Source of the DNA: Eubacteriales bacterium
Lineage (GTDB): Bacteria; Bacillota; Clostridia; Oscillospirales; CAG-272
Length of the DNA: 64,000 nucleotides
Assembly: GCA_045576195.1 (NCBI GenBank)
Contig: JAZNFZ010000071.1
Coordinates: forward strand, 4,479-68,478
Reading direction: 5' to 3'
Part shown: positions 3,965 through 38,386 of the stretch, piece after piece
Layout of the letters: the number at the start of each line of letters is the position of its first letter
Numbering within the stretch: position 1 is the first letter of the stretch
Position numbers and translations under genes: made by a program
The notes under the pieces: model-generated
Databases searched by the model: none
The model's input: the letters and a program-made list of their open reading frames with translations, nothing else
What the model was told of the DNA's origin: nothing

Positions 3965-4129
3965 TGAGGCTCCTTCGCAGCAGCCCTGCTGCTTTTTTAT
4001 CAGAAATTAAAATTATTATAGCACAAGCCGCCTCATCTGTCAAGAATTGGAGCACCGCGGAAAATCAAAGCATTTTTTTCATCAAGCCCCGCCCCCTTGC
4101 ATACAATAGGAGAAAAGGAGTGTGATCTT

Positions 4130-5041
4130 GTGAGAGACGGTGGAATGATCAACTGGGAATATGTAATGGATGCAGCAGGCGCGCTGGCAAGTGAGGGTGA
4201 TATGGTGCGGGTCGAGACACTGACGCGCTCTGTTCTGGGGCGCGAGATCCCCCTGATCACCCTGGGGAAGGGCGAAAAAAGCGTGCTTTATGTGGGCGCA
4301 CATCATGGGATGGAATGGATCACTGCAGGGGTGCTGATCGATTTCGCAAGGGATCTTGTGTCGGCCTATCTTGCGGGAAGATCGGTTTTTGAATACCGCG
4401 CCGAGCATCTCCTTACGGCTCGCAAGATCTATATTGTTCCGATGCTCAATCCCGACGGCGTGGCGTACAGTCAATGCGGCGTGGAGGAGCATCATCCCTT
4501 GCGCGAGCGCTTGCTCCGAATGAACGGGGAGGCGGGTGAGGATTTCTCGCGCTGGCAGGCGAACGGACGCGGGGTAGACCTGAACCACAATTATGATGCG
4601 GGCTTTTTGGAGTACAAGGAAAAGGAGCGGCAGGCGGGACTTTTGAACGGCGCGCCCACCAGATACAGCGGCGAGTATCCCGAATCCGAGCCCGAGACCG
4701 CCGCGCTCTGCGCGCTGATCCGCGGGCGGCGCGAGGAGCTTGGCGGTGTGCTGACCCTCCACACCCAAGGAGAGGAGATCTATTGCAGCTGCGCCGATCG
4801 GATGACGGCAAAATGCACCGCCATCGGCAGGCTGTTGCAGCGATACACGGGGTATCGGCTGGCAAGTCCCACGGGTCTTGCCGCCTTTGGCGGTCTTACG
4901 GATTGGTGCATTGCCGCACAGGGGCTACCCGCCTTTACGCTGGAGTGCGGTCTTGGAGAAAATCCGCTGCCTGCCTCGCAACGCGCGGTGATCCTCGAGC
5001 GGCTGCGCCATGCGCTTTTTGCCTTTCCGTTCTGGGTATAA
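4130..5041 (+). CDS. M14-family zinc carboxypeptidase (gamma-D-glutamyl-diamino-acid peptidase-like)
   Basis: HHGMEW (HxxE zinc ligands) and GVDLNHNY motifs. Likely GTG start at 4130, 9 nt after AAGGAG (the track start 4097 is TTG). Confidence 0.8.
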   Translation: MRDGGMINWEYVMDAAGALASEGDMVRVETLTRSVLGREIPLITLGKGEKSVLYVGAHHGMEWITAGVLIDFARDLVSAYLAGRSVFEYRAEHLLTARKIYIVPMLNPDGVAYSQCGVEEHHPLRERLLRMNGEAGEDFSRWQANGRGVDLNHNYDAGFLEYKEKERQAGLLNGAPTRYSGEYPESEPETAALCALIRGRREELGGVLTLHTQGEEIYCSCADRMTAKCTAIGRLLQRYTGYRLASPTGLAAFGGLTDWCIAAQGLPAFTLECGLGENPLPASQRAVILERLRHALFAFPFWV

Positions 5042-5056
5042 AAAAGCAGGCAGCAA
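5040..5056. repeat. outer inverted repeat, left arm (AAAAAAGCAGGCAGCAA)
   Basis: Perfect reverse complement of 5919-5935. Begins within the stop codon of the peptidase gene. Confidence 0.9.
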
Positions 5057-5070
5057 CATAGGGTTGTCCC

Positions 5071-5086
5071 CTAAAGGACAGTTTTA
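5071..5086. repeat. inner inverted repeat, left copy (CTAAAGGACAGTTTTA)
   Basis: 14 of 16 positions match the reverse complement of 5891-5906. Confidence 0.8.
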
Positions 5087-5105
5087 CCAACCGCCAAAAA
5101 ATATA

Positions 5106-5133
5106 AACCGCAGATTGATTTTCTGCGGTTTTT
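5106..5133 (+). terminator. rho-independent terminator-like hairpin
   Basis: 8-bp stem AACCGCAG/CTGCGGTT, 9-nt loop, T-run. The loop contains the -35 of the next promoter. Confidence 0.6.
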
Positions 5134-5143
5134 GTGATATAAT
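5115..5143 (+). promoter_or_regulatory. sigma-A-type promoter TTGATT-17-TATAAT for the lipoprotein gene
   Basis: Hexamers at 5115-5120 and 5138-5143 with a 17-nt spacer. Confidence 0.55.
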
Positions 5144-5230
5144 AGAGTGTATGATTAACACTGTGCATAAAGGTGTTTTGTTACGATAAATCCGAACGAT
5201 AAATGAGAATTTGACGAAGGAGACTTCATC

Positions 5231-5719
5231 ATGAGATATGTAAAGTTAATTATATTAACTATCATCGGTTGCATCGTTTTTTCTTCTTGTAGCATCGTAG
5301 GTAGCGGGCAAGCCGAATACTTTGGCTTCAAAACAAGTGTGTTTACTGTTATCGACGAGAATGACACACACAGTGGCTTTCATGGTGATGGCTCCTATTA
5401 TCTAATTTTGGACTGCTCAGAAAAAAGAGAGCAAGCAATGGAACTTATCAAGGATTGGACACCGCTTCCTCTTACGGAGAATTTGCAGTTGATTATGTAT
5501 GGCGGTGAAAAGAATGGTGAGAGCTATGGCTATAATCTCGCAGAAGAAGCACATTGGCCTATTATTAATAACGGCGTTTATAAATTTGTTGATCGCTACT
5601 CAGGACCGGGCGATAAGTCAGATGATACAAACCTATTTAACAGATACTCTTATAATTTTTCTATTGCAGCATATGATTTAGATACTGACACATTGTATTA
5701 TTTTGAATTTGATACTTAA
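5231..5719 (+). CDS. putative lipoprotein, function unknown
   Basis: 162-aa ORF with an RBS GAAGGAG. Signal peptide ends in a lipobox-like FSSC. AT-rich codon usage unlike its neighbours. Confidence 0.6.
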   Translation: MRYVKLIILTIIGCIVFSSCSIVGSGQAEYFGFKTSVFTVIDENDTHSGFHGDGSYYLILDCSEKREQAMELIKDWTPLPLTENLQLIMYGGEKNGESYGYNLAEEAHWPIINNGVYKFVDRYSGPGDKSDDTNLFNRYSYNFSIAAYDLDTDTLYYFEFDT

Positions 5720-5766
5720 TTGTTAGTCAAATTCCAATTTGTCTAACGGATTTGCACCGCACTAAA

Positions 5767-5794
5767 GCCTCCCTTGTGTAAAGGGAGCCTTTTT
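5767..5794 (+). terminator. rho-independent terminator after lipoprotein gene
   Basis: Stem CTCCCTT/AAGGGAG, 5-nt loop, T5 run. Confidence 0.65.
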
Positions 5795-5851
5795 GTTTAT
5801 CTATGTCTCGTCAATTTTTCTGACAAGCACTGCATTTGTGGATACAAATGT

Positions 5852-5890
5852 AAAACACGGCATATCTCGAAAGAGGTATGCCGTGTTTTT
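5852..5890. terminator. bidirectional rho-independent terminator
   Basis: A4 run, 10-bp stem ACACGGCATA/TATGCCGTGT, 12-nt loop, T5 run. Confidence 0.7.
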
Positions 5891-5906
5891 GAAAACTATC
5901 CTTTAG
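5891..5906. repeat. inner inverted repeat, right copy (GAAAACTATCCTTTAG)
   Basis: Partner of 5071-5086 (14/16). Confidence 0.8.
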
Positions 5907-5918
5907 AGCGATGCCATA

Positions 5919-5935
5919 TTGCTGCCTGCTTTTTT
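5919..5935. repeat. outer inverted repeat, right arm (TTGCTGCCTGCTTTTTT)
   Basis: Perfect reverse complement of 5040-5056, 10 nt from the ruvB stop codon. Confidence 0.9.
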
Positions 5936-5945
5936 GCGGTGGAGC

Positions 5946-7022
5946 TTATGACTCCTCGCCGAATAAATTGATCTGTGCGCCCTCTCGCGGGGTACCGTGG
6001 TAGGGGAGCCCCAGATGCTCATAGGCACGCCTTGTCACACACCGCCCGCGGGGGGTGCGGGAGAGGAAGCCGATCTGCATGAGATAAGGCTCATAGACAT
6101 CCTCAAGGGTAACTGCCTCCTCGCCAATGGTGGCGGAAAGGGTCTCAAGACCCACGGGACCGCCATCGTAAAAGTTAATGATGGTGGTGAGCATACGGCG
6201 GTCGATGTTGTCAAGGCCGAGATGGTCGATCTCCAGACGCTGCAGCGCGAAATTGGCAATGTCAGAGGAAATGGTGCCGTCGCCGTTGACCTCGGCAAAG
6301 TCACGTACACGCTTGAAAAGACGGTTGGCGATGCGGGGTGTGCCGCGGGAGCGGGAGGCGATCTCAATGGCACCGTCATCGGAGATCGAAAGCCCCAGGA
6401 TCCCCGCGCTTCGGCGAACAATATCGGCCAGCTCCTCGGGGGTATAGAGATCGAGCTTGAGCAGCACACCAAATCGGTCGCGCAGCGGCGTGCTCAGCTG
6501 TCCTGCGCGCGTGGTGGCACCGATCAGCGTAAATTTGGGCAGATCAATGCGGATGCTACGTGCTGCAGGTCCTTTGCCGATGATAATATCCAGCGCATAG
6601 TCCTCCATTGCGGGGTAGAGGATCTCCTCTACGGCACGGGAAAGACGGTGGATCTCGTCAATAAACAGTACATCTCCCTCGGAAAGGTTGGTCAGCAGTG
6701 CCGCAAGGTCGCCCTGCTTTTCGATAGCGGGACCCGAGGTCACGCGGATGTTTACCCCCAGCTCATTGGCGATGATGGAGGAAAGCGTGGTCTTTCCAAG
6801 TCCGGGAGGGCCGTAAAGCAGTACGTGGTCAAGCGGATCGTGGCGCTTTTTTGCGGCATTGATGTAGACGCGCAGATTTTCCTTGACCTTTTCCTGGCCC
6901 ACGTAATCGTCAAGAGTCTGCGGGCGCAGGGTAATGTCGGGCTCGGTATCCTCTGCGGTCTCGGCGGTGGAGAGAATGCGGCTTTCAAAATCAAAATCGC
7001 TGTCGTCTGTGATAAAGCTCAT
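5946..7022 (-). CDS. ruvB: Holliday junction branch migration helicase RuvB
   Basis: Walker [10 protein letters not shown] and Walker B FIDEIH. ATG at 7022 lies 7 nt after AGGAGG (the track GTG at 7028 is too close to the RBS). Confidence 0.95.
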
Positions 7023-7034
7023 ATGCACTCCTCC

Positions 7035-12119: not shown

Positions 12120-12887
12120 ATGAAGCTGTTGTTAACGGTTGCCTACGTGGGAACGGCGTATTGCGGCTATCAGGTCCAGCCCAACGGCGTGACCGTGCAG
12201 GAGGCGCTCAACACCGCCGCCAAGGCACTCTTTGGTGTGGACTGTGACATCGTGGGCTGCAGCCGCACGGATAGCGGCGTGCACGCCAGAGCCTTTCAAG
12301 CCACGGTTTGCGAAAAAGGGAAATCGGGGCTTTCCACCACGCTGCCGCCCTCTCGGGTGCCGCGGGCGATGAACGCCTTTTTACCAAAGGATATTTCGGT
12401 GCTTGCCGCCCGTGCGGTGGAGGATTCCTTCCACGCCCGCTATGATGTGCATTCCAAGGAGTATGAATATCTGCTCCTCAATACGCGGGAGCGCGATCCT
12501 TTTCTCGCGGATCGTGTCTGGCACTACCCGACCCCGCTTGATGAAAATGCCCTTTGCCTGATGAACAGGGCAGCAGAGGCCTTTGTCGGCACCAGGGATT
12601 TTTCCGCCCTGCGCGACGGGGGCGCGGATGCTGAGGAGAATGCAGTCCGCACCGTGTATTCCGCCTCGGTGACAAGAAGGGGAGATCTGATCTCCTTTCG
12701 AGTGCGCGCCGACGGATTTCTTTATCATATGGTGCGTATTATGATGGGCACACTCATTGCGGTAGCAAAGGGGAAGATCCCCGCCGACGAGATCGAGGCG
12801 CGCCTTCTTACGCTTGACCGCGCCAAAATGGGCGAGACCGCGCCTGCCGCGGGGCTTTATCTTGACCGCGTATTTTACAAGAACTAA
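12120..12887 (+). CDS. truA: tRNA pseudouridine(38-40) synthase TruA (3' end supplied by inserted DNA)
   Basis: Catalytic RTDSGVHA motif. The last 5 codons after 12871 switch to AT-rich usage. Confidence 0.9.
   Translation: MKLLLTVAYVGTAYCGYQVQPNGVTVQEALNTAAKALFGVDCDIVGCSRTDSGVHARAFQATVCEKGKSGLSTTLPPSRVPRAMNAFLPKDISVLAARAVEDSFHARYDVHSKEYEYLLLNTRERDPFLADRVWHYPTPLDENALCLMNRAAEAFVGTRDFSALRDGGADAEENAVRTVYSASVTRRGDLISFRVRADGFLYHMVRIMMGTLIAVAKGKIPADEIEARLLTLDRAKMGETAPAAGLYLDRVFYKN
12857..12871 (+). repeat. direct repeat copy 1 (TTATCTTGACCGCGT), att-like core in truA
   Basis: Identical 15-mer recurs at 14522-14536. Confidence 0.9.
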
Positions 12888-12956
12888 AAGTCAAATCAAA
12901 GATAAACTTTTGAAAAAATAGACAAATACACCCTTTCAGGTATGTCGGAGCTTGTT

Positions 12957-13838
12957 ATGAAACGCTTTTCTATCTTTCTTATGTGTTTGTGTATGATGTT
13001 CAACTGTTTCGTACTTTTAACATTTGCCCATTCTGGGAAAACAGATGCAAATGGTGGCCACACAAATTATGCTACTGGGGAATATCATTATCATCACGGC
13101 GAATCAGCACATCAGCATCCTAATGGTAAATGCCCTTATGAAACCAAAAACAATATAATAAATATCTTCATATATATCGTGCTGGGTGGAGTTGGCTTGT
13201 TTGTGCTGTGGAATTTGGTTATATCACCGCTTATACATCCTTCGGAGATGAAATCACCCCAAAACGACAAAACCCCATCACTATCAGAGGCATCCTCTTT
13301 GCCTCAAAAAGAGTCGCAGCAGCATTTGAATATTTCTGCATCTTCTGCTGTGACTAAGGAAGTTCCTTCGTTGACAAATGTTAACTCAACAAAAACACAT
13401 TATACCTCGGTGAGGCAACCACCTGCACCTCGTCCGTTTTTTGGTTCAATTCCGTCAAAAGGTACTCATATCAGCCAACCTCCTGTTGTTGCAAACGGTA
13501 GCCTATCAGATCATCCTGATATTTTAGGAGTGGACCGTGCTTATTTAACAGAAAAACAGGCTTTAGCTTATGCCCTCTCGATTGAAACGCCGCGCGGAAA
13601 AAAGGCCGTTACAGAACAAATCCTTCTTGACAACATTGAGACTGAAGATGGTACAAAGCCATTTCGTGTCACCTGCTCTACCACTTCTCTTAATTCTTAT
13701 CAGCAATATCGCACTACGCTTGTTTCTTGTACTTGTAAGGATTATCAGACACGTCATTTGCCCTGCAAGCATATGATTGCGCTAGCAATCAATATCAATG
13801 CTATCACGGTGGATATGGAAGTGTTGCAAAAACGTTAA
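12957..13838 (+). CDS. membrane protein with N-terminal YHYH-motif domain and C-terminal SWIM zinc finger
   Basis: Signal/anchor MKRFSIFLMCLCMMFNCFVLLTFA; GGHTNYATGEYHYHHG; second TM; S/P/Q-rich linker; CTCKDYQTRHLPCKH (CxCx9CxH). ATG at 12957 lies 7 nt after GGAG (the track start is 12942). Confidence 0.6.
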   Translation: MKRFSIFLMCLCMMFNCFVLLTFAHSGKTDANGGHTNYATGEYHYHHGESAHQHPNGKCPYETKNNIINIFIYIVLGGVGLFVLWNLVISPLIHPSEMKSPQNDKTPSLSEASSLPQKESQQHLNISASSAVTKEVPSLTNVNSTKTHYTSVRQPPAPRPFFGSIPSKGTHISQPPVVANGSLSDHPDILGVDRAYLTEKQALAYALSIETPRGKKAVTEQILLDNIETEDGTKPFRVTCSTTSLNSYQQYRTTLVSCTCKDYQTRHLPCKHMIALAININAITVDMEVLQKR

Positions 13839-13879
13839 TTAAAAAAATATCGCCCGAGTGGAGGGTAAGGAAGGTTATT

Positions 13880-14530
13880 ATGGAAGGAATTGCTGTCATT
13901 ATAGGACTTTGTGTTTTTCTTATCCCTTTAATTTACGTTATACGCGAAATTGCAGAAGGTATTTCTAGGAAAAGACAATTGGATAATCCTTATGTCAATA
14001 CCAAATCCAAAGCATATTTGGAAGCTGAATTTCGCAGGATTGCTGCACGAAATAAAAATTGGGCGGAAGCGCTTGAATACATGAATAAATGTTATTGTCT
14101 TCAAATCTCTCAAGATGAAATATTAGAAATGAGCAGACACGAAGAACCCCTTATTTCCTTGGCACAAAAAATAACGACGGGCAAGCCTACTGTTATGTTC
14201 TATATGTTCTCGATGCATAACATGTTGGTTGATTTGATGGCTGAAATGCAACTCGATGAAACAAGTCAATCTTCTATTGTCTCTGATTTTTTAGCTTCAA
14301 TTTCATGTGTTACTGACGAAGTAATTGATAAAATCGCAAAATCCTTTGCTGCTAATTTATCCGAGAAGTTGTATTTTTTGAAAGAAAAAATCAATTATGA
14401 ATTAGCTGCGCTTGGTTTTATTATGCAGTATGGTGTTGATTCAGGTAAAACTTATATTTGTGATAAGGTAAACGGAATTCGCAGAAAAAGAGAGACTTAT
14501 GTATCAATCTTGCGTTCTTCGTTATCTTGA
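13880..14530 (+). CDS. hypothetical N-terminally membrane-anchored protein
   Basis: 216-aa ORF with RBS AAGGAAGG, one N-terminal TM and a helical remainder. The stop codon lies inside the right direct repeat. Confidence 0.5.
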   Translation: MEGIAVIIGLCVFLIPLIYVIREIAEGISRKRQLDNPYVNTKSKAYLEAEFRRIAARNKNWAEALEYMNKCYCLQISQDEILEMSRHEEPLISLAQKITTGKPTVMFYMFSMHNMLVDLMAEMQLDETSQSSIVSDFLASISCVTDEVIDKIAKSFAANLSEKLYFLKEKINYELAALGFIMQYGVDSGKTYICDKVNGIRRKRETYVSILRSSLS

Positions 14531-14536
14531 CCGCGT
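14522..14536 (+). repeat. direct repeat copy 2 (TTATCTTGACCGCGT)
   Basis: Identical to 12857-12871. Confidence 0.9.
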
Positions 14537-14555
14537 GCTCTATCGGGAGCCGTAA
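14523..14555 (+). pseudogene. displaced remnant of the original truA 3' end (YLDRVLYREP-stop)
   Basis: Read in the frame set by the repeat, it gives the same YLDRV motif followed by LYREP-stop in GC-rich codons. This parallels the YLDRVFYKN-stop at the current truA end. Confidence 0.6.
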
Positions 14556-14597: not shown

Positions 14598-15827
14598 ATG
14601 AATGACGAGATCAAGGACCGCGAGGTGACGGATGCCGAAGAGGCATTGCTGCCCGAGGCAGAGGTGGGCGCTACCGACTATTGGAAAAAAAGCGCTTCTA
14701 CCTATACGCTGATGGCGCGGATCCTCACCGTGGCGCTGGTGCTGTTTTTGGTGTTTTTCTCTATGTTTTATTCAAGGGCCTTCTCTCACCGAGGCTTCCA
14801 CTACTTTGTAAAGGATCTGCTGGCGCTGGCGGGCACCTCGCCCGAGCAGTCGGGCAAGGTCTATTACACACCGAGCGAGGGCGAGAGCCATATTTTTGCC
14901 TTCCGCGGCGGCGTGGCGCAGGTCAACACCACGGGAGTTGAGGTCTGCTCGGCAGACGGCCGTCGGCTTTTGCGGGTGGAGCACGCGCTCACCACACCGC
15001 GCGCTGCCTGCTCCCGCAAATATCTGGTGGCGTATGATTTTGGCGGCACCTCCTTTGTGGTGTGCAATTCCTATGCCGAGCTTTACCGTGCCGAGACTGC
15101 GGATCCCATTTCCTATTGCGCGGTTTCGGATTCGGGGCATTTTCTTCTGGTGACCCGCTCGGAAAACGCTCTGACCTCGGTGCTGCTTTACAATGCAAGC
15201 TGTGAGCAGATCCAGAAATTTGAGCGTGCCTCCGCCACTATCGGCGCAGCTGTTTCGGATAACGGCAGCTATGTGGCCCTGGTGGGACTTTCCCTTGAGT
15301 CGGGCGAGAAGGTGGCGCGGCTTGATGTGTTTGAGATCGGAAAAGCAGAGCCGAGGGCGAGTGTTCGCCTGAACGGTGAGGTGCCGCTGCGGGTGGACTT
15401 CCTGTCCTCGCGTCAGCTGGTGCTGCTGACCGACAAGGGCACCTATACCTATCAGACCGACGGGAAGCAGCTTGGCAGTGTTGCTCACGGTGAGGATACT
15501 CCCTATTCCTTTGCCGTGGGAGATGCCTCCCTTGCGCTGGTGCTGAAGACCGACTCTGCCACCACCCCTTACCGCATTCTGGTGGTGAACAGGAGGGGAG
15601 AGGCGCTCTATAACAGTGTCTTTGCCGATGAGGTGATCGCGGCTTCACTTTTCGACGGTGTGCTGTTTTTGCTGTCGCCTGACCGTGTGACAAGAGTCGA
15701 TCTTGGCAAAGGCGAGACGGATACCGTCCCTTGCACTGTGGGTGCTGTAGGGCTTTCCGCTCTTGCTGATGACCGCGTGCAGGTCTTTTACGAGGCTGTT
15801 GCGGTGTATGTTTCGTTTGATGATTGA
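14598..15827 (+). CDS. hypothetical membrane-anchored protein with beta-rich extracytoplasmic domain
   Basis: 409-aa ORF with a strong RBS AAAGGAGG, a single TM near residues 40-60, and repetitive beta-strand-like segments. No catalytic motif recognised. Confidence 0.6.
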   Translation: MNDEIKDREVTDAEEALLPEAEVGATDYWKKSASTYTLMARILTVALVLFLVFFSMFYSRAFSHRGFHYFVKDLLALAGTSPEQSGKVYYTPSEGESHIFAFRGGVAQVNTTGVEVCSADGRRLLRVEHALTTPRAACSRKYLVAYDFGGTSFVVCNSYAELYRAETADPISYCAVSDSGHFLLVTRSENALTSVLLYNASCEQIQKFERASATIGAAVSDNGSYVALVGLSLESGEKVARLDVFEIGKAEPRASVRLNGEVPLRVDFLSSRQLVLLTDKGTYTYQTDGKQLGSVAHGEDTPYSFAVGDASLALVLKTDSATTPYRILVVNRRGEALYNSVFADEVIAASLFDGVLFLLSPDRVTRVDLGKGETDTVPCTVGAVGLSALADDRVQVFYEAVAVYVSFDD

Positions 15828-18178: not shown

Positions 18179-18220
18179 TAACGAAAAACACGACAAATAA
18201 ATATTATGGGAGGTAAAACA

Positions 18221-20509
18221 ATGAGAAAACGCATTCTTCTTACGCTCGCGGCACTTTTGTGCCTGCTTTGCACCATCGCGCTGAGCTCTTGCGAGAGAGA
18301 ACACACCTGGATGACCGCTTACGAGTACGATGCCACTCACCATTGGGTGAAATGCGGACATTGTGACGCCACCAAGGAAGCTGCCGTGCATAATGTAGAT
18401 TCTAAAGGTCTTTGCACCGTTTGTCACCAACCCCTGCTCGGCAGCGAAGGGATCAAGTATACTCTTTCTGACGACGGCACCCATGCTACGGTTGTGGGCT
18501 ATGACGGCACGGCAAAGGATGTTGTCATCGGCGCCTTGTATCAGGGTAAACCCGTGACCCAAATTTATTATAATGCATTCGAGGATCGTGCCGACTTGAC
18601 CTCTGTTATCATTCCACCCTCCGTCACAGAGATTACGGGGTATGCATTCTCCGGCTGTACGGGGCTCACATCGATTACAATTCCCGCTTCTGTGACGAGT
18701 ATTGGCCCTGCTGTATTCGATCGCTGTACGGGCATCACATCTGTTACGGTGGAAACGGGCAATGCGGTGTATCACAGCGCAGATAACTGCGTGATCGAAA
18801 CCGCTACGGGAACGCTTGTTGCGGGCTGTAAAAGCAGTGTGATTCCCACGGATGGCAGCGTGACGAGCATTGGCAAATCCGCATTTTCCGAATGTACGGA
18901 GCTTGTGTCGCTTACCATTCCCGATTCGGTGACGAGCATTGGCGATCATGCTTTTAAGCGTTGCTACTCTTTGACGGCGGTTACTATTCCGTCGTCGGTG
19001 ACGGAAATTGGCAACTCTGCATTTTACGGCTGTATGGGACTTGAGTCTGTTACCTTTGACGAGGATTCTCAGCTTAGCACTATCAGCAGATCCGTGTTCG
19101 AGCGCTGCACGGTTCTGGCGTCTATCACCATCCCCGATTCGGTGACAAGCATTGAGTCCAATGCATTCACTTATTGCGTGCGACTCACGTCCTTTACCAT
19201 TCCCGACTCCGTGACGAGTATTGGCGACAGTGCGTTTTATGGCTGCTCCTCACTTAAATCCATTACTATTCCTTCCTCGGTCACAAGCCTTGCCGATAAT
19301 CTGTTTACCGATTGCACGGCTTTGACGTCTGTTACGATCCCCGATTCGGTGACGAGCATTGGCCGCGATACATTTTGCTCTTGCACCGCTCTTACCGCTC
19401 TTACCATCCCCGATTCGGTGACAAGCATTGGTTACCGTGCATTTGGCGCTTGCACGAGCCTTGTGTCCATTGCTATCCCCGATTCGGTGACGAGCATCGG
19501 TGAATCGGCCTTTGATTATTGCACGGGCCTGACGTTTATCGCCATTCCCGACTCCGTGACGAGTATTGCGCCGTCCATGTTTTACGAATGTGCCAATCTG
19601 GCCACCGTCATCATCCCCGATTCCGTGACAACGATTGAATCCTCTGCATTCAATGGGTGCACAAGCCTTATATCCGTTGCGATCCCCGATTCGGTGACTG
19701 CTATTGGCCCCCATGCATTCGAGGGGTGTGAAAGGTTACTTTATTACGAGTACAACAATGCATATTATCTCGGCAACCCTGACAACCCGTACTTTGTCCT
19801 TCTGAAAGCAAAGAACAAAGACATCACGTCCTGCAGCATTCACGAAAGCACGAGGATCATTTGCGATTCAGCATTCGAGCGGTGCTGGAAGTTAACGTCG
19901 ATCGCCATTCCCGCCTCCGTCATACAAATCTTGCCCGGCACATTCCAAAATTGCCAAAACTTGGAGCTTGTTGCGGTTAAGGAGGGGAACACGGCATACC
20001 ACAGCGCAGGGAATTGCCTGATTGAAACCGCTACGGGGATACTTGTTGCGGCGGGTTGTAAAAACAGCGTGATCCCCACAGACGGCAGTGTGACAAGCAT
20101 TGGCCAATATGCATTTTCCGGCTACACGGGACTTGCGTCGATCATCATTCCCGATTCGGTGACTGCTATCGGCCCGTATGCATTTTCCGGCTGCACGGGG
20201 TTTACGTCGATCATCATTCCCAATTCGGTGATAAGCATTGGCTCATATGCATTTTCCGGTTGCAGAGAGGCGGAGTTCGTCGTGCTTCCCGCCTCTGTGA
20301 CCAATGTCGGTCTCTATGCGTTCACACAATGTAGCGATCTTTCTGTAGTGTATTACACGGGCACGGCAGCGGAGTGGGAAATCCTCTCCGAAAGCCATCG
20401 CGGTATATCGTTGCCCTCTGCCCCCCGCTATTATTACTCCGCCACGCAGCCGACCGAGGCAGGGAAATATTGGCACTACGATGCCAACGGAAACCCCGCG
20501 AAGTGGTGA
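18221..20509 (+). CDS. surface lipoprotein with about 20 BspA-type leucine-rich repeats
   Basis: Lipobox LSSC after the signal peptide (ATG at 18221 after GGGAGG). Repeated IPxSVTSIGxxAFxxCxxLxS units of ~23 aa. C-terminal YWHYDANGNPAKW tail. Confidence 0.85.
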   Translation: MRKRILLTLAALLCLLCTIALSSCEREHTWMTAYEYDATHHWVKCGHCDATKEAAVHNVDSKGLCTVCHQPLLGSEGIKYTLSDDGTHATVVGYDGTAKDVVIGALYQGKPVTQIYYNAFEDRADLTSVIIPPSVTEITGYAFSGCTGLTSITIPASVTSIGPAVFDRCTGITSVTVETGNAVYHSADNCVIETATGTLVAGCKSSVIPTDGSVTSIGKSAFSECTELVSLTIPDSVTSIGDHAFKRCYSLTAVTIPSSVTEIGNSAFYGCMGLESVTFDEDSQLSTISRSVFERCTVLASITIPDSVTSIESNAFTYCVRLTSFTIPDSVTSIGDSAFYGCSSLKSITIPSSVTSLADNLFTDCTALTSVTIPDSVTSIGRDTFCSCTALTALTIPDSVTSIGYRAFGACTSLVSIAIPDSVTSIGESAFDYCTGLTFIAIPDSVTSIAPSMFYECANLATVIIPDSVTTIESSAFNGCTSLISVAIPDSVTAIGPHAFEGCERLLYYEYNNAYYLGNPDNPYFVLLKAKNKDITSCSIHESTRIICDSAFERCWKLTSIAIPASVIQILPGTFQNCQNLELVAVKEGNTAYHSAGNCLIETATGILVAAGCKNSVIPTDGSVTSIGQYAFSGYTGLASIIIPDSVTAIGPYAFSGCTGFTSIIIPNSVISIGSYAFSGCREAEFVVLPASVTNVGLYAFTQCSDLSVVYYTGTAAEWEILSESHRGISLPSAPRYYYSATQPTEAGKYWHYDANGNPAKW
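18570..20350 (+). repeat. in-frame tandem ~69-bp repeat array encoding the LRR units
   Basis: Recurrent ATYCCCGAYTCSGTGACRAGYATTGG blocks, e.g. near 18910, 19131, 19198, 19330, 19400, 19470, 19540, 19610, 19680, 20140 and 20215. Confidence 0.8.
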
Positions 20510-35630: not shown

Positions 35631-35674
35631 CATACCGATATGTAATCGCATTTTTGAGGAAGGAGGTGCTTGCT

Positions 35675-38386
35675 GTGAAGCGTACCGCATTGCGCATACT
35701 GTCGTTGCTTCTTGCGCTTTTGCTCGGCGGGGTGCTTTCGGCGTCTGCTGCGGCACTGACCCTTGCCACCGCGGGTGAGCCCTCCTTTGCCTCTTCGGTG
35801 GGGAAACGCTTTGTCTTTGCCACGCTCCATGACGATAGCCTCAACACCTACACGGTGGTGGAGGGGGCACCGCTTTTGCTGGATCTTTCCGCAGGGTCGG
35901 TCTTCTCTGCGCCGTCAACGGCGATCCCTTCGGCGGGCGGCAGCAATACGCTTTACCTCTCGCTTGTCAATAAAAGCAATGCCACAAGCCTGACGTTGAC
36001 CTATCATTTTGTCGGTCACAGCACGCAGTCCGAAACGGTTGAGCAGGCGCTGATCGTGGGCAGCGAGGAGGAGCAGCGCTACTATCTTCCTGCCGCCAAC
36101 GTGGATCAAATGACGGGTATTACGGTTGCCTTCCACGGCGAGGAGCCCCTTGAAGGCGATCTTGAGCTGAGGGCGCTTTACAATCTTTCGATTTTTGATG
36201 ATTCGTTTGCGGAGGAGGCCGAGATCGAGATCTGCCAATATCAGGCTGCTACCAATACGGTAGAGATCAGCGGCTCGGTCAGCTACGCCGCTACCGTGCG
36301 CTACGCAGGCGGAACACTGGCACTTTTCGCCATTTCCCCCGATGACAATCTCTACCTCTCAAATCAGACTCCGATCGCACGCACCGGCATCTCCTTTTCC
36401 TTCTCCTTTTCCGTAGAGGCAGACAGCATAGAGGCGCTTTGCAGCCGCTATGTGGTGGCGGCAGTTTCCAAAACGGGAGAGCGTATCCCGCTTTGCCGAC
36501 CGCTTTATCCTGATATTTCTACGGTTTCTGCAGCGTCTCCCGCAGGCTTCAAGGGCTTTCACACCACCGATTATGCCGATGCGCTGATGGCGCACGCGGG
36601 AATGACTGTCGTGGATGTTTATCTTGACCGCCTGGTGGGCAACCAGAACGACGGCATTCTTTATGCGGGTGACCGCTCCTACTATTACTTTGACCGAGAA
36701 TATGTGGGCAAGCTTGACAAGGAGATTCGCAATCTCTCTGCGGGCGGCGGTAGTATCTATCTTCGCTTCCTGATATCCGCCACCGCCAACAATCTCCCCT
36801 TTGCCTCTTATACCGAGAGCTCCGAGGGCATCTGCAACAAGGCTATTTTGGTGAACAGCGACAATGCCATGTATGCGCTTGCGGCCTTTACCGATTTTCT
36901 CACCGCACGTTACGGCAGCACTTCTGCTGTCGGCACGCTTGACGGCATCATTCTCGGAAGGGCAATGAACTCCGCCAACCGCAACAGCTTCGCCACGGTC
37001 AGCAGTCTTTCGGAATACACCGCCTATTACACAGCCGCGCTTTCGCTGATCGCGGGCGTGGCGAGCAAGAATATATCGGATATCGATATGGTCATCCCGC
37101 TTTCCGATAACGGGGGAAGCGATGCAATGTCCGAGGCGGCGCTGGGCGGCGATTATCCTGCCGATCACGCGCTTTATTCGCTGCTCAGGGCGATCAAAGC
37201 CACCTCCCGCACACCCACCGCCTTTACCGTTATGCTGGAATCCACCGCGATGCCCGCGGCTGTTTCGGGCGAGACGGGTGCCGCGCGCGGCATTGACGGG
37301 TTGGCACGGAATATGGATGTGATCAGGGGCCTTGCAGAGAGCTTTTCCTTCCTGGATCAGCATATCATCTACTCCTATACCCCCACCGCGCTTGCGGCAA
37401 CGGAGGACCTGCAGGCAGCCTTTGTTCTGCAGTATGTATACCTCAAGACTCGCCCCGAGGTACTGGCGTTCCTTTCCGACGGGTCGCTTCTTGACGATCA
37501 CGAGCGGAATGCATGGGTCGATGCGATCTCTTATTTTGCCGAAAGGATCGACGCGGGGCGCTTTGATGTGCTTTGCGCACCGATCCTCTCCTACCTTGGT
37601 GTCTCCTCCTTCGGTGAGCTTTATCCGGGTCACCAAAAGGAAGCACTTTACACTCATGACGTGATCTATACCAATCTGACCGAGCAGGGCTATGCATCGG
37701 GCATCACCCCCATCGGCAGCTACTCGCTGTGGAGCTTTTCTCACGCGGTGGGTACGCTGAACTGGTATGCGGGCAGGGATTGCTCCGAGCTTTCGGTGAT
37801 CTCGGGGGATTTCGGCAAGGCGCTGACGGCCTCCCTTCGCTCCTTGGGCGACCGAAAATATGCCGAGATCGGCCATAATTTTACTACAACGGAGAATTAT
37901 TCCTTTGCACCCTATCTTCGCTTTGAGCTTGGCATTAAGGGAAAAGCGAGCACCCCTTATGAGGTACGCGTTCAGCTGATCGGGGAAACCGTGGTCGCCT
38001 ACGGCTCTGCCGTAGTGGAGTCGGGCGAGCTGCAAACGCTTTATCTTGACCTTTCCTCCTGTGCCGAGGGTCTTTCCTCGGTGAGGAGCATGCGTATATC
38101 CGCCCGCCCGTTGGATAGCAGCAGCGCCGATTACAGCCTTTGCCTGCAGTCGGTCACGCTGCAGAGCATCTCGTATAACGACGAGGAGCTGGCCAGGCGC
38201 ATTGCCGAGGAGCGCAAGGAAGGGGAGCCCTCGGATGAAATAAAGGATAATTTCAAGGATCGGACTACCGCGATCATCGTGACCGCAGCGCTGATCGTTT
38301 GCAGCGTGGCGATCGCGGCGGTGCTTGTGGTCAAGCACCACAACGACAAGCGGCAGGAAAAAGCAAGAGAAACCGAACAATCATAG
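35675..38386 (+). CDS. large (~900 aa) exported protein with C-terminal membrane anchor, function unknown
   Basis: GTG at 35675 lies 8 nt after AGGAGG. Signal peptide ends in SASAAA. C-terminal TM AIIVTAALIVCSVAIAAVLVV is followed by a basic tail. No catalytic motif recognised. Confidence 0.65.
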   Translation: MKRTALRILSLLLALLLGGVLSASAAALTLATAGEPSFASSVGKRFVFATLHDDSLNTYTVVEGAPLLLDLSAGSVFSAPSTAIPSAGGSNTLYLSLVNKSNATSLTLTYHFVGHSTQSETVEQALIVGSEEEQRYYLPAANVDQMTGITVAFHGEEPLEGDLELRALYNLSIFDDSFAEEAEIEICQYQAATNTVEISGSVSYAATVRYAGGTLALFAISPDDNLYLSNQTPIARTGISFSFSFSVEADSIEALCSRYVVAAVSKTGERIPLCRPLYPDISTVSAASPAGFKGFHTTDYADALMAHAGMTVVDVYLDRLVGNQNDGILYAGDRSYYYFDREYVGKLDKEIRNLSAGGGSIYLRFLISATANNLPFASYTESSEGICNKAILVNSDNAMYALAAFTDFLTARYGSTSAVGTLDGIILGRAMNSANRNSFATVSSLSEYTAYYTAALSLIAGVASKNISDIDMVIPLSDNGGSDAMSEAALGGDYPADHALYSLLRAIKATSRTPTAFTVMLESTAMPAAVSGETGAARGIDGLARNMDVIRGLAESFSFLDQHIIYSYTPTALAATEDLQAAFVLQYVYLKTRPEVLAFLSDGSLLDDHERNAWVDAISYFAERIDAGRFDVLCAPILSYLGVSSFGELYPGHQKEALYTHDVIYTNLTEQGYASGITPIGSYSLWSFSHAVGTLNWYAGRDCSELSVISGDFGKALTASLRSLGDRKYAEIGHNFTTTENYSFAPYLRFELGIKGKASTPYEVRVQLIGETVVAYGSAVVESGELQTLYLDLSSCAEGLSSVRSMRISARPLDSSSADYSLCLQSVTLQSISYNDEELARRIAEERKEGEPSDEIKDNFKDRTTAIIVTAALIVCSVAIAAVLVVKHHNDKRQEKARETEQS

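What the first reader, a model, noticed from the sequence alone, without database searches (positions are those of the whole stretch)
12857..14555. AT-rich two-gene cassette integrated into the 3' end of truA, with perfect 15-bp direct repeats and the displaced ancestral truA terminus
Seen: TTATCTTGACCGCGT occurs at 12857-12871, inside the last codons of truA, and again at 14522-14536, 1665 bp downstream. Sampled 60-nt lines between the copies are ~30-47% GC versus ~65% in truA just upstream. In the truA frame the left copy reads YLDRV then FYKN-stop in AT-rich codons (gta ttt tac aag aac taa). The right copy, read in the same relative frame, gives YLDRV then LYREP-stop in host-like GC-rich codons (gtg ctc tat cgg gag ccg taa, 14523-14555). 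Inference: the right junction keeps the original truA C-terminus, and the insert brought a surrogate 3' end. That is the classical attL/attR footprint of site-specific integration into a gene 3' end. The insert carries only two ORFs (a YHYH/SWIM membrane protein and a 216-aa TM protein) and no recombinase. It is therefore either mobilised in trans or is a minimal or decayed integrative element with undescribed cargo. This is my best candidate for something new in the window.
Basis: partly seen in the sequence, partly recalled or inferred. Interest (0 to 1): 0.72.

Follow-up and report, generated by a model that had tools for sequence, protein, structure and literature searches.

The report
Decayed prophage remnant in truA
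A 1.65-kb AT-rich insertion at the end of the tRNA-modification gene truA is the stripped-down remnant of a temperate phage that integrated site-specifically; it has lost its integrase and keeps two phage membrane-protein genes, which is a clean but ordinary kind of genome scar.

Summary
TTATCTTGACCGCGT occurs exactly twice, at 12857-12871 and 14522-14536. The 1650 bp between the copies have 37.8% GC against 54.1±2.4% in the rest of the window. truA now ends ...YLDRVFYKN on insert-borne codons, and the displaced tail ...VLYREP follows the right copy.

Three independent conspecific contigs (98.2-98.8% nt identity) have an empty site: one 15-mer, truA ending VLYREP, and the DUF5711 gene 43 bp later. 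About 70 related species also have truA directly followed by DUF5711.

Both cargo genes belong to small families found only in one group of temperate phages. There they lie between the cI-like repressor and a tyrosine integrase: 5 of 5 contexts for ORF1 homologues, 4 of 4 for ORF2 homologues. The window has no homologue of those integrases.

ORF2 has lost its native stop codon and reads into the right core. Only 18 nt remain where relatives carry the integrase gene and its arm-type repeats.

Best reading: a grounded prophage, like a cis-mobilizable element (CIME), that integrated by tyrosine recombination into a conserved truA codon stretch and was then whittled down. The retained genes are plausible but untested superinfection-exclusion candidates. 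This is a new member of a known kind, of modest interest.

The parts
12120..12887 (+). truA (tRNA pseudouridine38-40 synthase), 255 aa. Its last 5 codons and stop codon are supplied by the insert.
   Evidence: Pfam PF01416, E 3e-38. It is 98% identical to the 256-aa P0001 and P0283, which end VLYREP.
12857..12871 (+). attL core: left copy of the 15-bp direct repeat TTATCTTGACCGCGT (truA codons L-Y-L-D-R-V).
   Evidence: The left blastn breakpoint with the empty-site contigs is at 12871. The same codon stretch is conserved in the truA of related species: exact in 2 and with 1 mismatch in 6.
12872..12887 (+). Element-borne surrogate truA tail. The base A completes the Val codon, followed by TTT TAC AAG AAC TAA (F-Y-K-N-stop).
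   Evidence: The tail VFYK... is the majority form in truA of relatives: 78 of 107 start FY, including FYKNITP. In L002 truA the nucleotide identity continues 10 nt into this arm.
12872..12917 (+). Remaining core-proximal arm of the element (putative P' arm), at most 46 nt.
   Evidence: It has no homology to anything fetched. Homology to the region upstream of ORF1 homologues begins at about 12918.
12918..12956 (+). Upstream region of the ORF1 module: a degenerate stem-loop plus the RBS GGAG.
   Evidence: It aligns with the GCCGCCCTCTCAGGCGGC hairpin and RBS that precede ORF1 homologues in L082, L083 and L084.
12957..13838 (+). ORF1, 293 aa (298 aa from the upstream ATG at 12942). Order of features: signal peptide, extracellular YHYH His-rich motif, TM helix, Pro/Ser-rich linker, cytoplasmic SWIM zinc-finger domain.
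   Evidence: Pfam SWIM and NCBIfam YHYH_alt. 14-sequence alignment A1. AF2 model with the C-terminal domain at pLDDT above 93. Homologues lie directly upstream of a tyrosine integrase in 5 prophages.
13880..14530 (+). ORF2, 216 aa: an N-terminal TM helix and an all-alpha cytoplasmic part. Its stop codon TGA lies inside the right core.
   Evidence: It is an orphan by word-index search. Exhaustive phmmer finds 41 relatives. Four contexts all lie between the cI-like repressor and the integrase of the same phage group.
14504..14521 (+). Probable deletion joint. These 18 nt encode a non-homologous C-terminal extension of ORF2 (S-I-L-R-S-S) and are all that is left between ORF2 and the core.
   Evidence: Family members end ...RKRGYI(D)-stop. 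The window protein reads ...RKRETYVSILRSSLS-stop. Related phages carry the int gene plus about 170 nt of arm with three arm-type repeats at this position.
14522..14536 (+). attR core: right copy of the 15-bp repeat.
   Evidence: The right blastn breakpoint is at 14522.
14537..14555 (+). Displaced ancestral truA tail (gctctatcgggagccgtaa: completes V, then L-Y-R-E-P-stop). It is now untranslated.
   Evidence: It is identical to the truA 3' end in the empty-site contigs L081, L149 and L150.
14598..15827 (+). DUF5711 membrane-protein gene, the ancestral downstream neighbour of truA.
   Evidence: Pfam PF18975. It directly follows truA in about 70 related genomes and in the empty sites.
12872..14536 (+). 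The inserted DNA as a whole: 1665 bp counting one core copy.
   Evidence: It is absent from L081, L149 and L150. GC is 0.378. There are no terminal inverted repeats, no tRNA and no Rfam match.

Best explanation
This is a grounded (decayed) prophage at a truA attachment site.

A temperate phage with a heterobivalent tyrosine integrase recombined its attP with the last codons of truA. It came from the group whose early region carries PcfJ and DUF3102 genes and whose lysogeny module reads cro<- | cI-> accessory genes-> int-> attP, and probably from a lower-GC host. The crossover fell within the 15 bp that phage and host share, TTATCTTGACCGCGT, which are the conserved L-Y-L-D-R-V codons. As is usual for elements that target a gene's 3' end, the phage arm carries a substitute truA tail (VFYKN), so truA stays intact.

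Later deletions removed the integrase with its arm-type sites, the repressor, and all replication, structural and lysis genes. What remains is the two cores, at most 46 nt of one arm, at most 18 nt of the other, and two accessory genes. All remaining genes point the same way as truA and the downstream DUF5711 gene. No terminator is predicted on that strand in the insert, so the operon can still be read through.

The two retained genes encode single-pass membrane proteins of the kind prophages express from the lysogeny module. Their most likely role is protection of the lysogen against other phages (superinfection exclusion or a related envelope-level block), which would explain why they survived the decay.

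Shown: the insertion polymorphism, the exact junctions, the surrogate and displaced truA tails, the foreign composition, the phage-module provenance of both genes, the absence of an integrase, and the truncation at ORF2.

Inferred: tyrosine-recombinase chemistry, the order and number of deletions, present immobility, and the anti-phage role.
For: - Exact 15-bp direct repeats, and three independent empty sites with breakpoints at 12871 and 14522.
- truA-DUF5711 adjacency holds in about 70 related species.
- Insert GC is 0.378, z = -6.9, and GC3 is 0.29-0.35 against 0.67-0.69 in the flanks.
- The surrogate tail VFYKN matches the family consensus. The core is a conserved truA stretch, and arm identity extends further in other species' truA.
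- ORF1 homologues lie 5-25 bp upstream of Phage_int_SAM_3/Phage_integrase genes in L082, L083, L084, L085-87 and L088-89.
- ORF2 homologues lie between the cI-like repressor and int in L102/103, L104 (repressor side only), L151 and L152, with the same early genes.
- ORF2 has lost its family-typical stop and runs into the core.
- Relatives carry int plus three arm-type direct repeats between the cargo and the core, and none of this is present here.
- There are no terminal inverted repeats.
- On the + strand the insert holds no predicted terminator; the single + strand hit lies inside truA at 12838-12852, upstream of the insert.
- Membrane Sie proteins encoded in lysogeny modules are an established class (PMC7693887).
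- Elements that lose their integrase but keep attL and attR are an established class (PMC5704250, PMC6379469).
Against: - No intact parent phage with this attP, and no prophage in truA, was found anywhere. The attL junction 22-mer is absent from IMG/VR and JGI metagenomes. None of 80 related genomes has anything inserted at truA.
- In relatives both cargo families lie on the integrase side of attP. Reaching attL-ORF1-ORF2-attR therefore needs at least two deletions, each ending within 50 nt of a core, or else a parent with a different gene order. That tight trimming is somewhat unexpected for random decay.
- ORF1 and ORF2 never co-occur in the nine related contexts.
- The anti-phage role rests on position and topology only. 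PADLOC gave only a sub-threshold SWIM match and PHROGs gave nothing. There was no PDB fold match.
Confidence: 0.72

Rival explanations
1. This is a still-mobile, recombinase-less mini-element: a phage-derived CIME or miniature satellite. The 1.65-kb unit was inserted as such, as a small circle carrying core plus ORF1 plus ORF2. The integrase was supplied in trans by a co-infecting or resident phage of the same att specificity, and the same integrase could excise it or accrete with it again.
For: Both 15-bp cores are perfect, and the element is trimmed almost exactly to the cores and two intact ORFs. That is what a selected minimal unit would look like, and it is awkward for random two-sided decay. 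CIMEs mobilised by a related element are documented (PMC5704250).
Against: The cassette is known from a single genome. ORF2 and ORF1 at 100% identity each occur on one contig among about 15 billion proteins. The junction sequence is absent from the viral and metagenome collections. The integrases of the related phages are arm-binding types whose attP has three arm repeats next to int. No such repeats exist in the 18 nt left at attR, so canonical excision or integration should fail. No integrase is present in the 64-kb window.
Confidence: 0.15
2. The DNA was acquired by homologous or microhomology-mediated recombination with foreign DNA, for example a truA region from a lower-GC relative that already carried the two genes. 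No site-specific recombinase acted in this lineage.
For: The 15-mer is conserved in the truA of several species, and the left arm continues like a foreign truA tail. Incoming DNA from a relative could therefore pair here.
Against: Allelic replacement would not leave the recipient's own displaced truA tail after a second copy of the 15-mer. The flanks are 98-99% identical to the empty-site strains right up to the repeats, with no mosaic tract. A direct duplication of the crossover sequence is the signature of a circle-into-chromosome (Campbell-type) event. If that event went through 15 bp of microhomology without an integrase it would be very inefficient.
Confidence: 0.06
3. This is a non-autonomous transposon or casposon-like element, and its insertion generated a 15-bp target-site duplication.
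For: Direct repeats flank an insert that has no recombinase. Casposons make 14-15-bp duplications and often sit at gene 3' ends (own knowledge).
Against: The ends have no terminal inverted repeats: the best local match is 6 nt, below the shuffle mean. There is no transposase or Cas1 remnant. The element supplies a truA-like tail in frame, which is a feature of attP sites and not of transposon ends. Both genes have prophage lysogeny-module provenance.
Confidence: 0.03
4. The insert is an assembly or binning artefact: a chimeric join in a metagenome-assembled contig.
For: The source appears to be an uncultured Clostridia/Oscillospiraceae genome. The cassette is seen on one NCBI contig only.
Against: The insert is flanked on both sides by collinear host sequence from the same locus, with a perfect 15-bp duplication and in-frame gene ends. 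Assemblers do not join on 15-bp overlaps, and a chimera would not return to the same locus.
Confidence: 0.02

Closest known systems
Grounded or cryptic prophage remnants (reviewed in PMC6379469; e.g. the E. coli K-12 cryptic prophages, own knowledge)
   Same: A foreign-composition block sits at a phage attachment site and has lost most or all phage functions. It keeps a few accessory genes that may benefit the host, and it is polymorphic between strains.
   Different: This one is unusually small at 1.65 kb and two genes. Both att cores are still perfect and no pseudogene debris remains. The parent phage and the truA target were not found described: three literature searches turned up no truA 3'-end attB.
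CIMEs, the cis-mobilizable elements of streptococci (definition in PMC5704250)
   Same: It meets the operational definition: it has lost its integration genes but retains attL and attR at the 3' end of a housekeeping gene.
   Different: CIMEs derive from ICEs or IMEs and are mobilised by accretion with a conjugative element. Here the cargo is of prophage origin. The int-proximal arm is reduced to at most 18 nt, and no mobilisation is shown.
Phages and elements that integrate into the 3' end of a protein gene and carry a replacement end (e.g. phage 21 and e14 in icd; own knowledge)
   Same: The core of identity lies inside the coding sequence, and the element arm supplies alternative last codons and a stop, so the gene stays functional.
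   Different: The target is truA. Only 5 codons are replaced, and the replacement resembles the tail of other species' truA more than the host's own.
Superinfection-exclusion proteins of temperate phages of Gram-positive bacteria (Sie2009 of Tuc2009, PMC7693887; Ltp of TP-J34, own knowledge)
   Same: They are small membrane-anchored proteins encoded in the lysogeny module between repressor and integrase and expressed in the lysogen. Homologues of ORF1 and ORF2 occupy exactly that slot.
   Different: No sequence relationship was detected: PHROGs and PADLOC gave nothing significant. ORF1 has an unusual YHYH-TM-SWIM architecture. The function is untested.

Membership tests
Site-specifically integrated element (Campbell-type insertion by a tyrosine recombinase) | Identical core sequence as a direct repeat at both junctions, with one copy in the empty site | tested here: met
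   A 15-bp repeat is present. A single copy is present in L081, L149 and L150, with breakpoints at 12871 and 14522.
Site-specifically integrated element (Campbell-type insertion by a tyrosine recombinase) | Target gene reconstituted by the element arm when the core lies inside a gene's 3' end | tested here: met
   truA stays open and ends VFYKN, a family-typical tail. The ancestral tail VLYREP is displaced to 14537-14555.
Site-specifically integrated element (Campbell-type insertion by a tyrosine recombinase) | A cognate integrase encoded next to one att site | tested here: not met
   tblastn with 6 integrases of the related phages finds nothing in the insert or the window. Pfam finds only SWIM in ORF1 and nothing significant in ORF2.
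Site-specifically integrated element (Campbell-type insertion by a tyrosine recombinase) | Arm-type integrase-binding repeats flanking the core | tested here: not met
   Relatives have three direct repeats just after int. Only 18 nt remain at attR, and no repeated motif was found in either arm.
Functional prophage | Repressor, replication, structural and lysis modules | tested here: not met
   Only two ORFs lie between the cores. DNA and protein homology to related prophages is confined to the two cargo genes.
CIME (cis-mobilizable element) | Has lost integration and transfer genes but retains attL and attR | tested here: met
   The definition is taken from PMC5704250.
CIME (cis-mobilizable element) | Derived from an ICE or IME | tested here: not met
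   Homologues of both genes are found in prophage lysogeny modules, not in conjugative elements.
CIME (cis-mobilizable element) | Excision or transfer when a related element integrates alongside (accretion-mobilisation) | not testable with these tools
   This needs PCR or long reads, or a mating or induction experiment.
Transposon, MITE or casposon with target-site duplication | Terminal inverted repeats at the element ends | tested here: not met
   The best local match between the first 60 nt and the reverse complement of the last 60 nt is 6 nt; the shuffle mean is 7.0.
Transposon, MITE or casposon with target-site duplication | A transposase or Cas1, or multiple copies at different targets | tested here: not met
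   No such domain was found. The cassette is unique in the protein collection and in the window.
Superinfection-exclusion (Sie) proteins | Membrane-associated protein encoded in the lysogeny module between repressor and integrase | tested here: met
   Each protein has a TM helix. Homologues occupy that position in 9 of 9 phage contexts.
Superinfection-exclusion (Sie) proteins | Sequence homology to a characterised Sie or defence protein | tested here: not met
   The best PHROGs hit has E = 0.07. PADLOC matches only the SWIM motif at E = 0.002.
Superinfection-exclusion (Sie) proteins | Blocks infection by heterologous phages when expressed | not testable with these tools
   This needs an experimental phage challenge.

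The most novel reading that the evidence does not exclude
The 1.65-kb unit is not debris. It is a selected, minimal, recombinase-free integrative cassette: a phage-derived hitchhiker of one att core plus two anti-phage membrane-protein genes. It is inserted and excised in trans by integrases of truA-targeting temperate phages. That would let lysogeny-module defence genes spread and persist independently of their phage.
Probability: 0.1. Interest if true: 0.6.

Novelty: new member of a known kind. Interest (0 to 1): 0.28.

Why it matters
This is a textbook-clean example of site-specific integration into the 3' end of a protein gene. It shows filled and empty alleles, a surrogate gene end and the displaced original end. 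It also identifies the conserved L-Y-L-D-R-V codon stretch of truA as a phage attachment site in uncultured gut Clostridia, a target I did not find described.

The finding links two uncharacterised protein families, YHYH-TM-SWIM and a roughly 200-aa TM/all-alpha family, to one fixed slot. That slot lies between the repressor and the integrase of one temperate-phage group, a position that often holds superinfection-exclusion or defence genes. The two families are therefore reasonable candidates for experimental phage-resistance screens.

Their survival as the only genes of an otherwise erased prophage hints that the host benefits from them. Beyond that, the finding does not challenge any current understanding.

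Tried and rejected
- The attL junction 22-mer TTATCTTGACCGCGTATTTTAC was searched in IMG/VR and in JGI metagenome contigs: no hits.
- The 15-mer alone in IMG/VR gave 44 hits. None has matching arms or an adjacent integrase. The one integrase found, in L119, lies about 1.4 kb away with unrelated flanks.
- The ORF2 family was searched in metagenome and viral contigs by degenerate patterns: nothing was confirmed.
- The ORF1 family in IMG/VR gave 12 loci, mostly SWIM-only matches, and added nothing on the att site.
- tblastn of ORF1 and ORF2 against 50,697 GenBank phages gave only N-terminal YHYH-motif matches for ORF1 and nothing for ORF2.
- The look-up of ORF2 by exact sequence is not on record, so the source assembly could not be named.
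- The AF2 model of ORF2 from a single sequence has pLDDT 50 and is unusable.
- The AF2 model of ORF1 is good for the C-terminal domain, but Foldseek against the PDB gave no hit better than E = 0.4.
- Rfam and tRNA scans of the region gave nothing.
- Three literature searches for truA as a phage or island attB gave only false or indirect hits: the author name Truant, truA used as a PCR primer site next to an rpsI island, and truA as a neighbour of a tRNA-Arg site.
- I considered and rejected the idea that ORF2 is a degenerate integrase: it has no similarity to one, it is an all-alpha TM protein, and it belongs to its own family.
- I considered and rejected the idea that the 36619 near-copy is a secondary att site.
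- I considered and rejected the idea that dyad symmetry around the core is informative: there is only a 6-nt GTTCTT/AAGAAC pair in the reconstructed attP and none in attB.
Full report
**Observation**

The 15-mer TTATCTTGACCGCGT occurs exactly at 12857-12871 and 14522-14536. Shuffles expect 0.09 matches even when 2 mismatches are allowed. The identity is exactly 15 bp.

The 1650 bp between the copies have 37.8% GC. All other 1650-nt windows of the 64-kb window give 54.1 ± 2.4% (z = -6.9), so this is the lowest value in the window. GC3 is 0.35 for ORF1 and 0.29 for ORF2, against 0.67-0.69 in the flanking genes.

truA (12120-12887, Pfam PF01416) ends ...AGLYLDRVFYKN-stop. After the right repeat the same frame reads ...VLYREP-stop to 14555.

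The insert holds two ORFs on the truA strand:
- ORF1 most likely starts at 12957 and is 293 aa. In order it has a signal peptide, a YHYH motif (NCBIfam NF033223, E 1e-11), a TM helix, a Pro/Ser linker and a SWIM zinc finger (PF04434, E 1e-7).
- ORF2 (13880-14530, 216 aa) has an N-terminal TM helix followed by an all-alpha part.

**Is it an insertion?**

Yes. The closest truA in a 5.8-billion-protein collection, P0001, is 98% identical, one residue longer, and ends ...YLDRVLYREP. Its contig L081 carries a single 15-mer, then gctctatcgggagccgtaa, then the DUF5711 gene 43 bp further on.

The same 90% cluster holds a second 256-aa allele, P0283, on two further contigs from other samples, L149 and L150, with the same empty site.

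blastn of all three contigs against the window breaks exactly at 12871 and resumes at 14522. The flanks are 98.2-98.8% identical and overlap by the 15 nt.

Across 80 related species genomes, truA is followed by the DUF5711 gene within 28-369 nt in about 70, and none has anything inserted there.

Relatives do encode VLYREP at an empty site. The 15-mer is not a repeat family: IMG/VR has 44 hits with unrelated flanks and no adjacent integrase. The compositional contrast is strong.

**What the core is**

The 15-mer is the codon stretch (L)Y-L-D-R-V, near the C-terminus of TruA. It is conserved at the nucleotide level in relatives: exact in 2 other species and with 1 mismatch in 6.

The first bases of the insert, ATTTTACAAGAAC TAA, continue like a truA gene. 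VFY... is the majority tail among 107 relatives and VFYKN... itself occurs. In L002 the nucleotide identity to the insert arm runs 10 nt beyond the core.

The element therefore carries a truA-like 3' end. This is the normal design of an attP that targets the end of a protein gene. The host's own atypical tail (VLYREP) limits the identity to 15 bp.

**Where the cargo comes from**

ORF1 has about 15 full-length homologues at 30-54% identity. Five independent genomic contexts were recovered: L082, L083, L084, L085-87 and L088-89. In each, the ORF1 homologue lies 5-25 bp upstream of, and co-oriented with, a tyrosine integrase (Phage_int_SAM_3 plus Phage_integrase, in one case also Arm-DNA-bind_4). 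It is downstream of a cI-like HTH protein and/or an M78 peptidase gene. It is divergent from a cro-like HTH gene and early genes such as PcfJ, DUF3102 and DUF4406.

ORF2 looked like an orphan by word-index search. An exhaustive phmmer against 1.84 billion representatives then found 41 relatives, the best at 47% identity. Four contexts (L102/103, L104, L151, L152) place it immediately after the cI-like repressor or after the M78 gene. Wherever the contig reaches that far, it lies upstream of the same type of integrase. The early genes are the same PcfJ and DUF3102.

Both genes are thus accessory genes of the lysogeny module of one group of temperate phages. The homologues have 45-54% GC (39% in L104), while the window's copies have 41% and 34%. 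This suggests an origin in a phage of a lower-GC host.

**What is missing**

tblastn with the integrases of those phages finds nothing in the insert or anywhere in the 64 kb. DNA similarity to the prophages is confined to the ORF1 coding region.

At the right end, ORF2 family members end ...RKRGYI(D)-stop. The window protein continues ...RKRETYVSILRSSLS-stop, and its stop codon lies in the core. Only 18 nt separate the end of homology from the core.

In related phages that interval holds the roughly 1.1-kb int gene and a roughly 170-nt arm. The arm begins with three direct arm-type repeats: TTTTGACGAC x3 in L088, L102 and L151, AGGTACA x3 in L082, and GTACCCA-like in L085 and L152.

At the left end, homology to the stem-loop and RBS that precede ORF1 homologues reaches back to about 12918, which leaves at most 46 nt of arm.

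There are no terminal inverted repeats, no tRNA and no Rfam match.

**Interpretation**

The structure is a Campbell-type, site-specific insertion into the truA 3' end by a temperate phage, followed by loss of everything except two accessory genes and the two cores. It is a grounded prophage (PMC6379469). It also meets the operational definition of a CIME, "lost its integration genes but retained attL and attR" (PMC5704250), although its origin is a phage and not an ICE or IME.

The related integrases are arm-binding types and the int-proximal arm is gone. I therefore infer that the remnant can no longer be excised by the canonical pathway.

All genes from ecfT to DUF5711 are co-oriented, and no + strand terminator is predicted within the insert. 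Read-through expression is therefore plausible.

**Function of the cargo (inferred)**

Both proteins are single-pass membrane proteins encoded in the slot between repressor and integrase. In phages of Gram-positive bacteria that slot typically holds genes expressed in the lysogen, notably membrane-associated superinfection-exclusion proteins such as Sie2009. It also holds two-component systems that pair a membrane protein with a zinc-metalloprotease-like protein (PMC7693887). The recurrent M78 peptidase next to these genes fits that pattern.

I therefore regard an envelope-level anti-phage role as the most likely function, and as the reason the genes survived. No homology supports this: PADLOC and PHROGs were negative, and there was no PDB fold match for the confidently modelled SWIM domain.

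**Weak points**

No parent phage and no other truA-integrated element was found. In relatives both cargo families lie on the integrase side of attP. The present order, attL-ORF1-ORF2-attR, therefore needs two deletions that each end close to a core, or a parent with a different layout.

That tidy trimming is the main argument for the rival reading, a minimal cassette mobilised in trans, to which I give 0.15. Homologous or microhomology-mediated acquisition, a transposon with a 15-bp duplication, and an assembly artefact are each unlikely, for the reasons given under rival explanations.

**Verdict**

The element is a new example, at an apparently undescribed target gene and with uncharacterised cargo families, of a well-known kind of genomic scar. 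Interest is modest at 0.28. The most novel reading not excluded is a recombinase-free hitchhiking defence cassette, with probability about 0.1.

Noticed in passing
window 5040-5935: A second AT-rich islet (GC about 0.40, the second-lowest region of the window) lies between the convergent M14 carboxypeptidase (4097-5041, +) and ruvB (5946-7028, -) genes. It is bounded by a 20-nt inverted repeat, AAAAAAGCAGGCAGCAACAT / ATATTGCTGCCTGCTTTTTT (95%). An inner 31-nt inverted repeat (5188-5218 / 5723-5753, 77%) brackets a 162-aa ORF (5231-5719) with no Pfam hit. It looks like a bidirectional terminator hairpin split by an insertion of about 860 bp, or a small passenger element bounded by terminal inverted repeats.
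   Followed up: partly
window 36619-36633: A one-mismatch copy of the att core (TTATCTTGACCGCCT) lies inside a 910-aa surface-protein gene (35654-38386). It encodes the same peptide, V-Y-L-D-R-L. It is a codon-level coincidence, not a secondary att site.
   Followed up: yes
L088 10106-10364; L102 6241-6439; L151 8870-9120; L082 10027-10130: The related prophages show clear arm-type repeats directly after the integrase stop codon: TTTTGACGAC x3 or AGGTACA x3. About 100 nt further on there is a tRNA-Ser 3' end as core. L151 has a second set of TTTGACGAC repeats beyond the tRNA-like core, which suggests a tandem remnant or accretion at that site.
   Followed up: partly
L082 10360-16864; L151 9123-14606: In two of the related prophage contigs the integrase is followed by a giant minus-strand ORF: 2269 aa with a PBECR3 domain in L082, and more than 1827 aa in L151. 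It is unclear whether this is host DNA, another mobile element, or part of the phage.
   Followed up: no
L085 6992-7564, L082 7331-7894, L102 4449-5012, L152 6749-7354: An M78 (ImmA-like) zinc-peptidase gene recurs on the opposite strand, next to the ORF1- or ORF2-family gene, in the lysogeny modules. This recalls the two-component systems of a membrane protein plus a metalloprotease-like protein mentioned in PMC7693887. The window's remnant lacks it.
   Followed up: no
window 18206-20509: A 767-aa protein has many near-identical 'IPDSVTSIG...F..C..L' leucine-rich repeats (BspA-like surface protein) in a region of slightly lower GC. It is unrelated to the finding.
   Followed up: no
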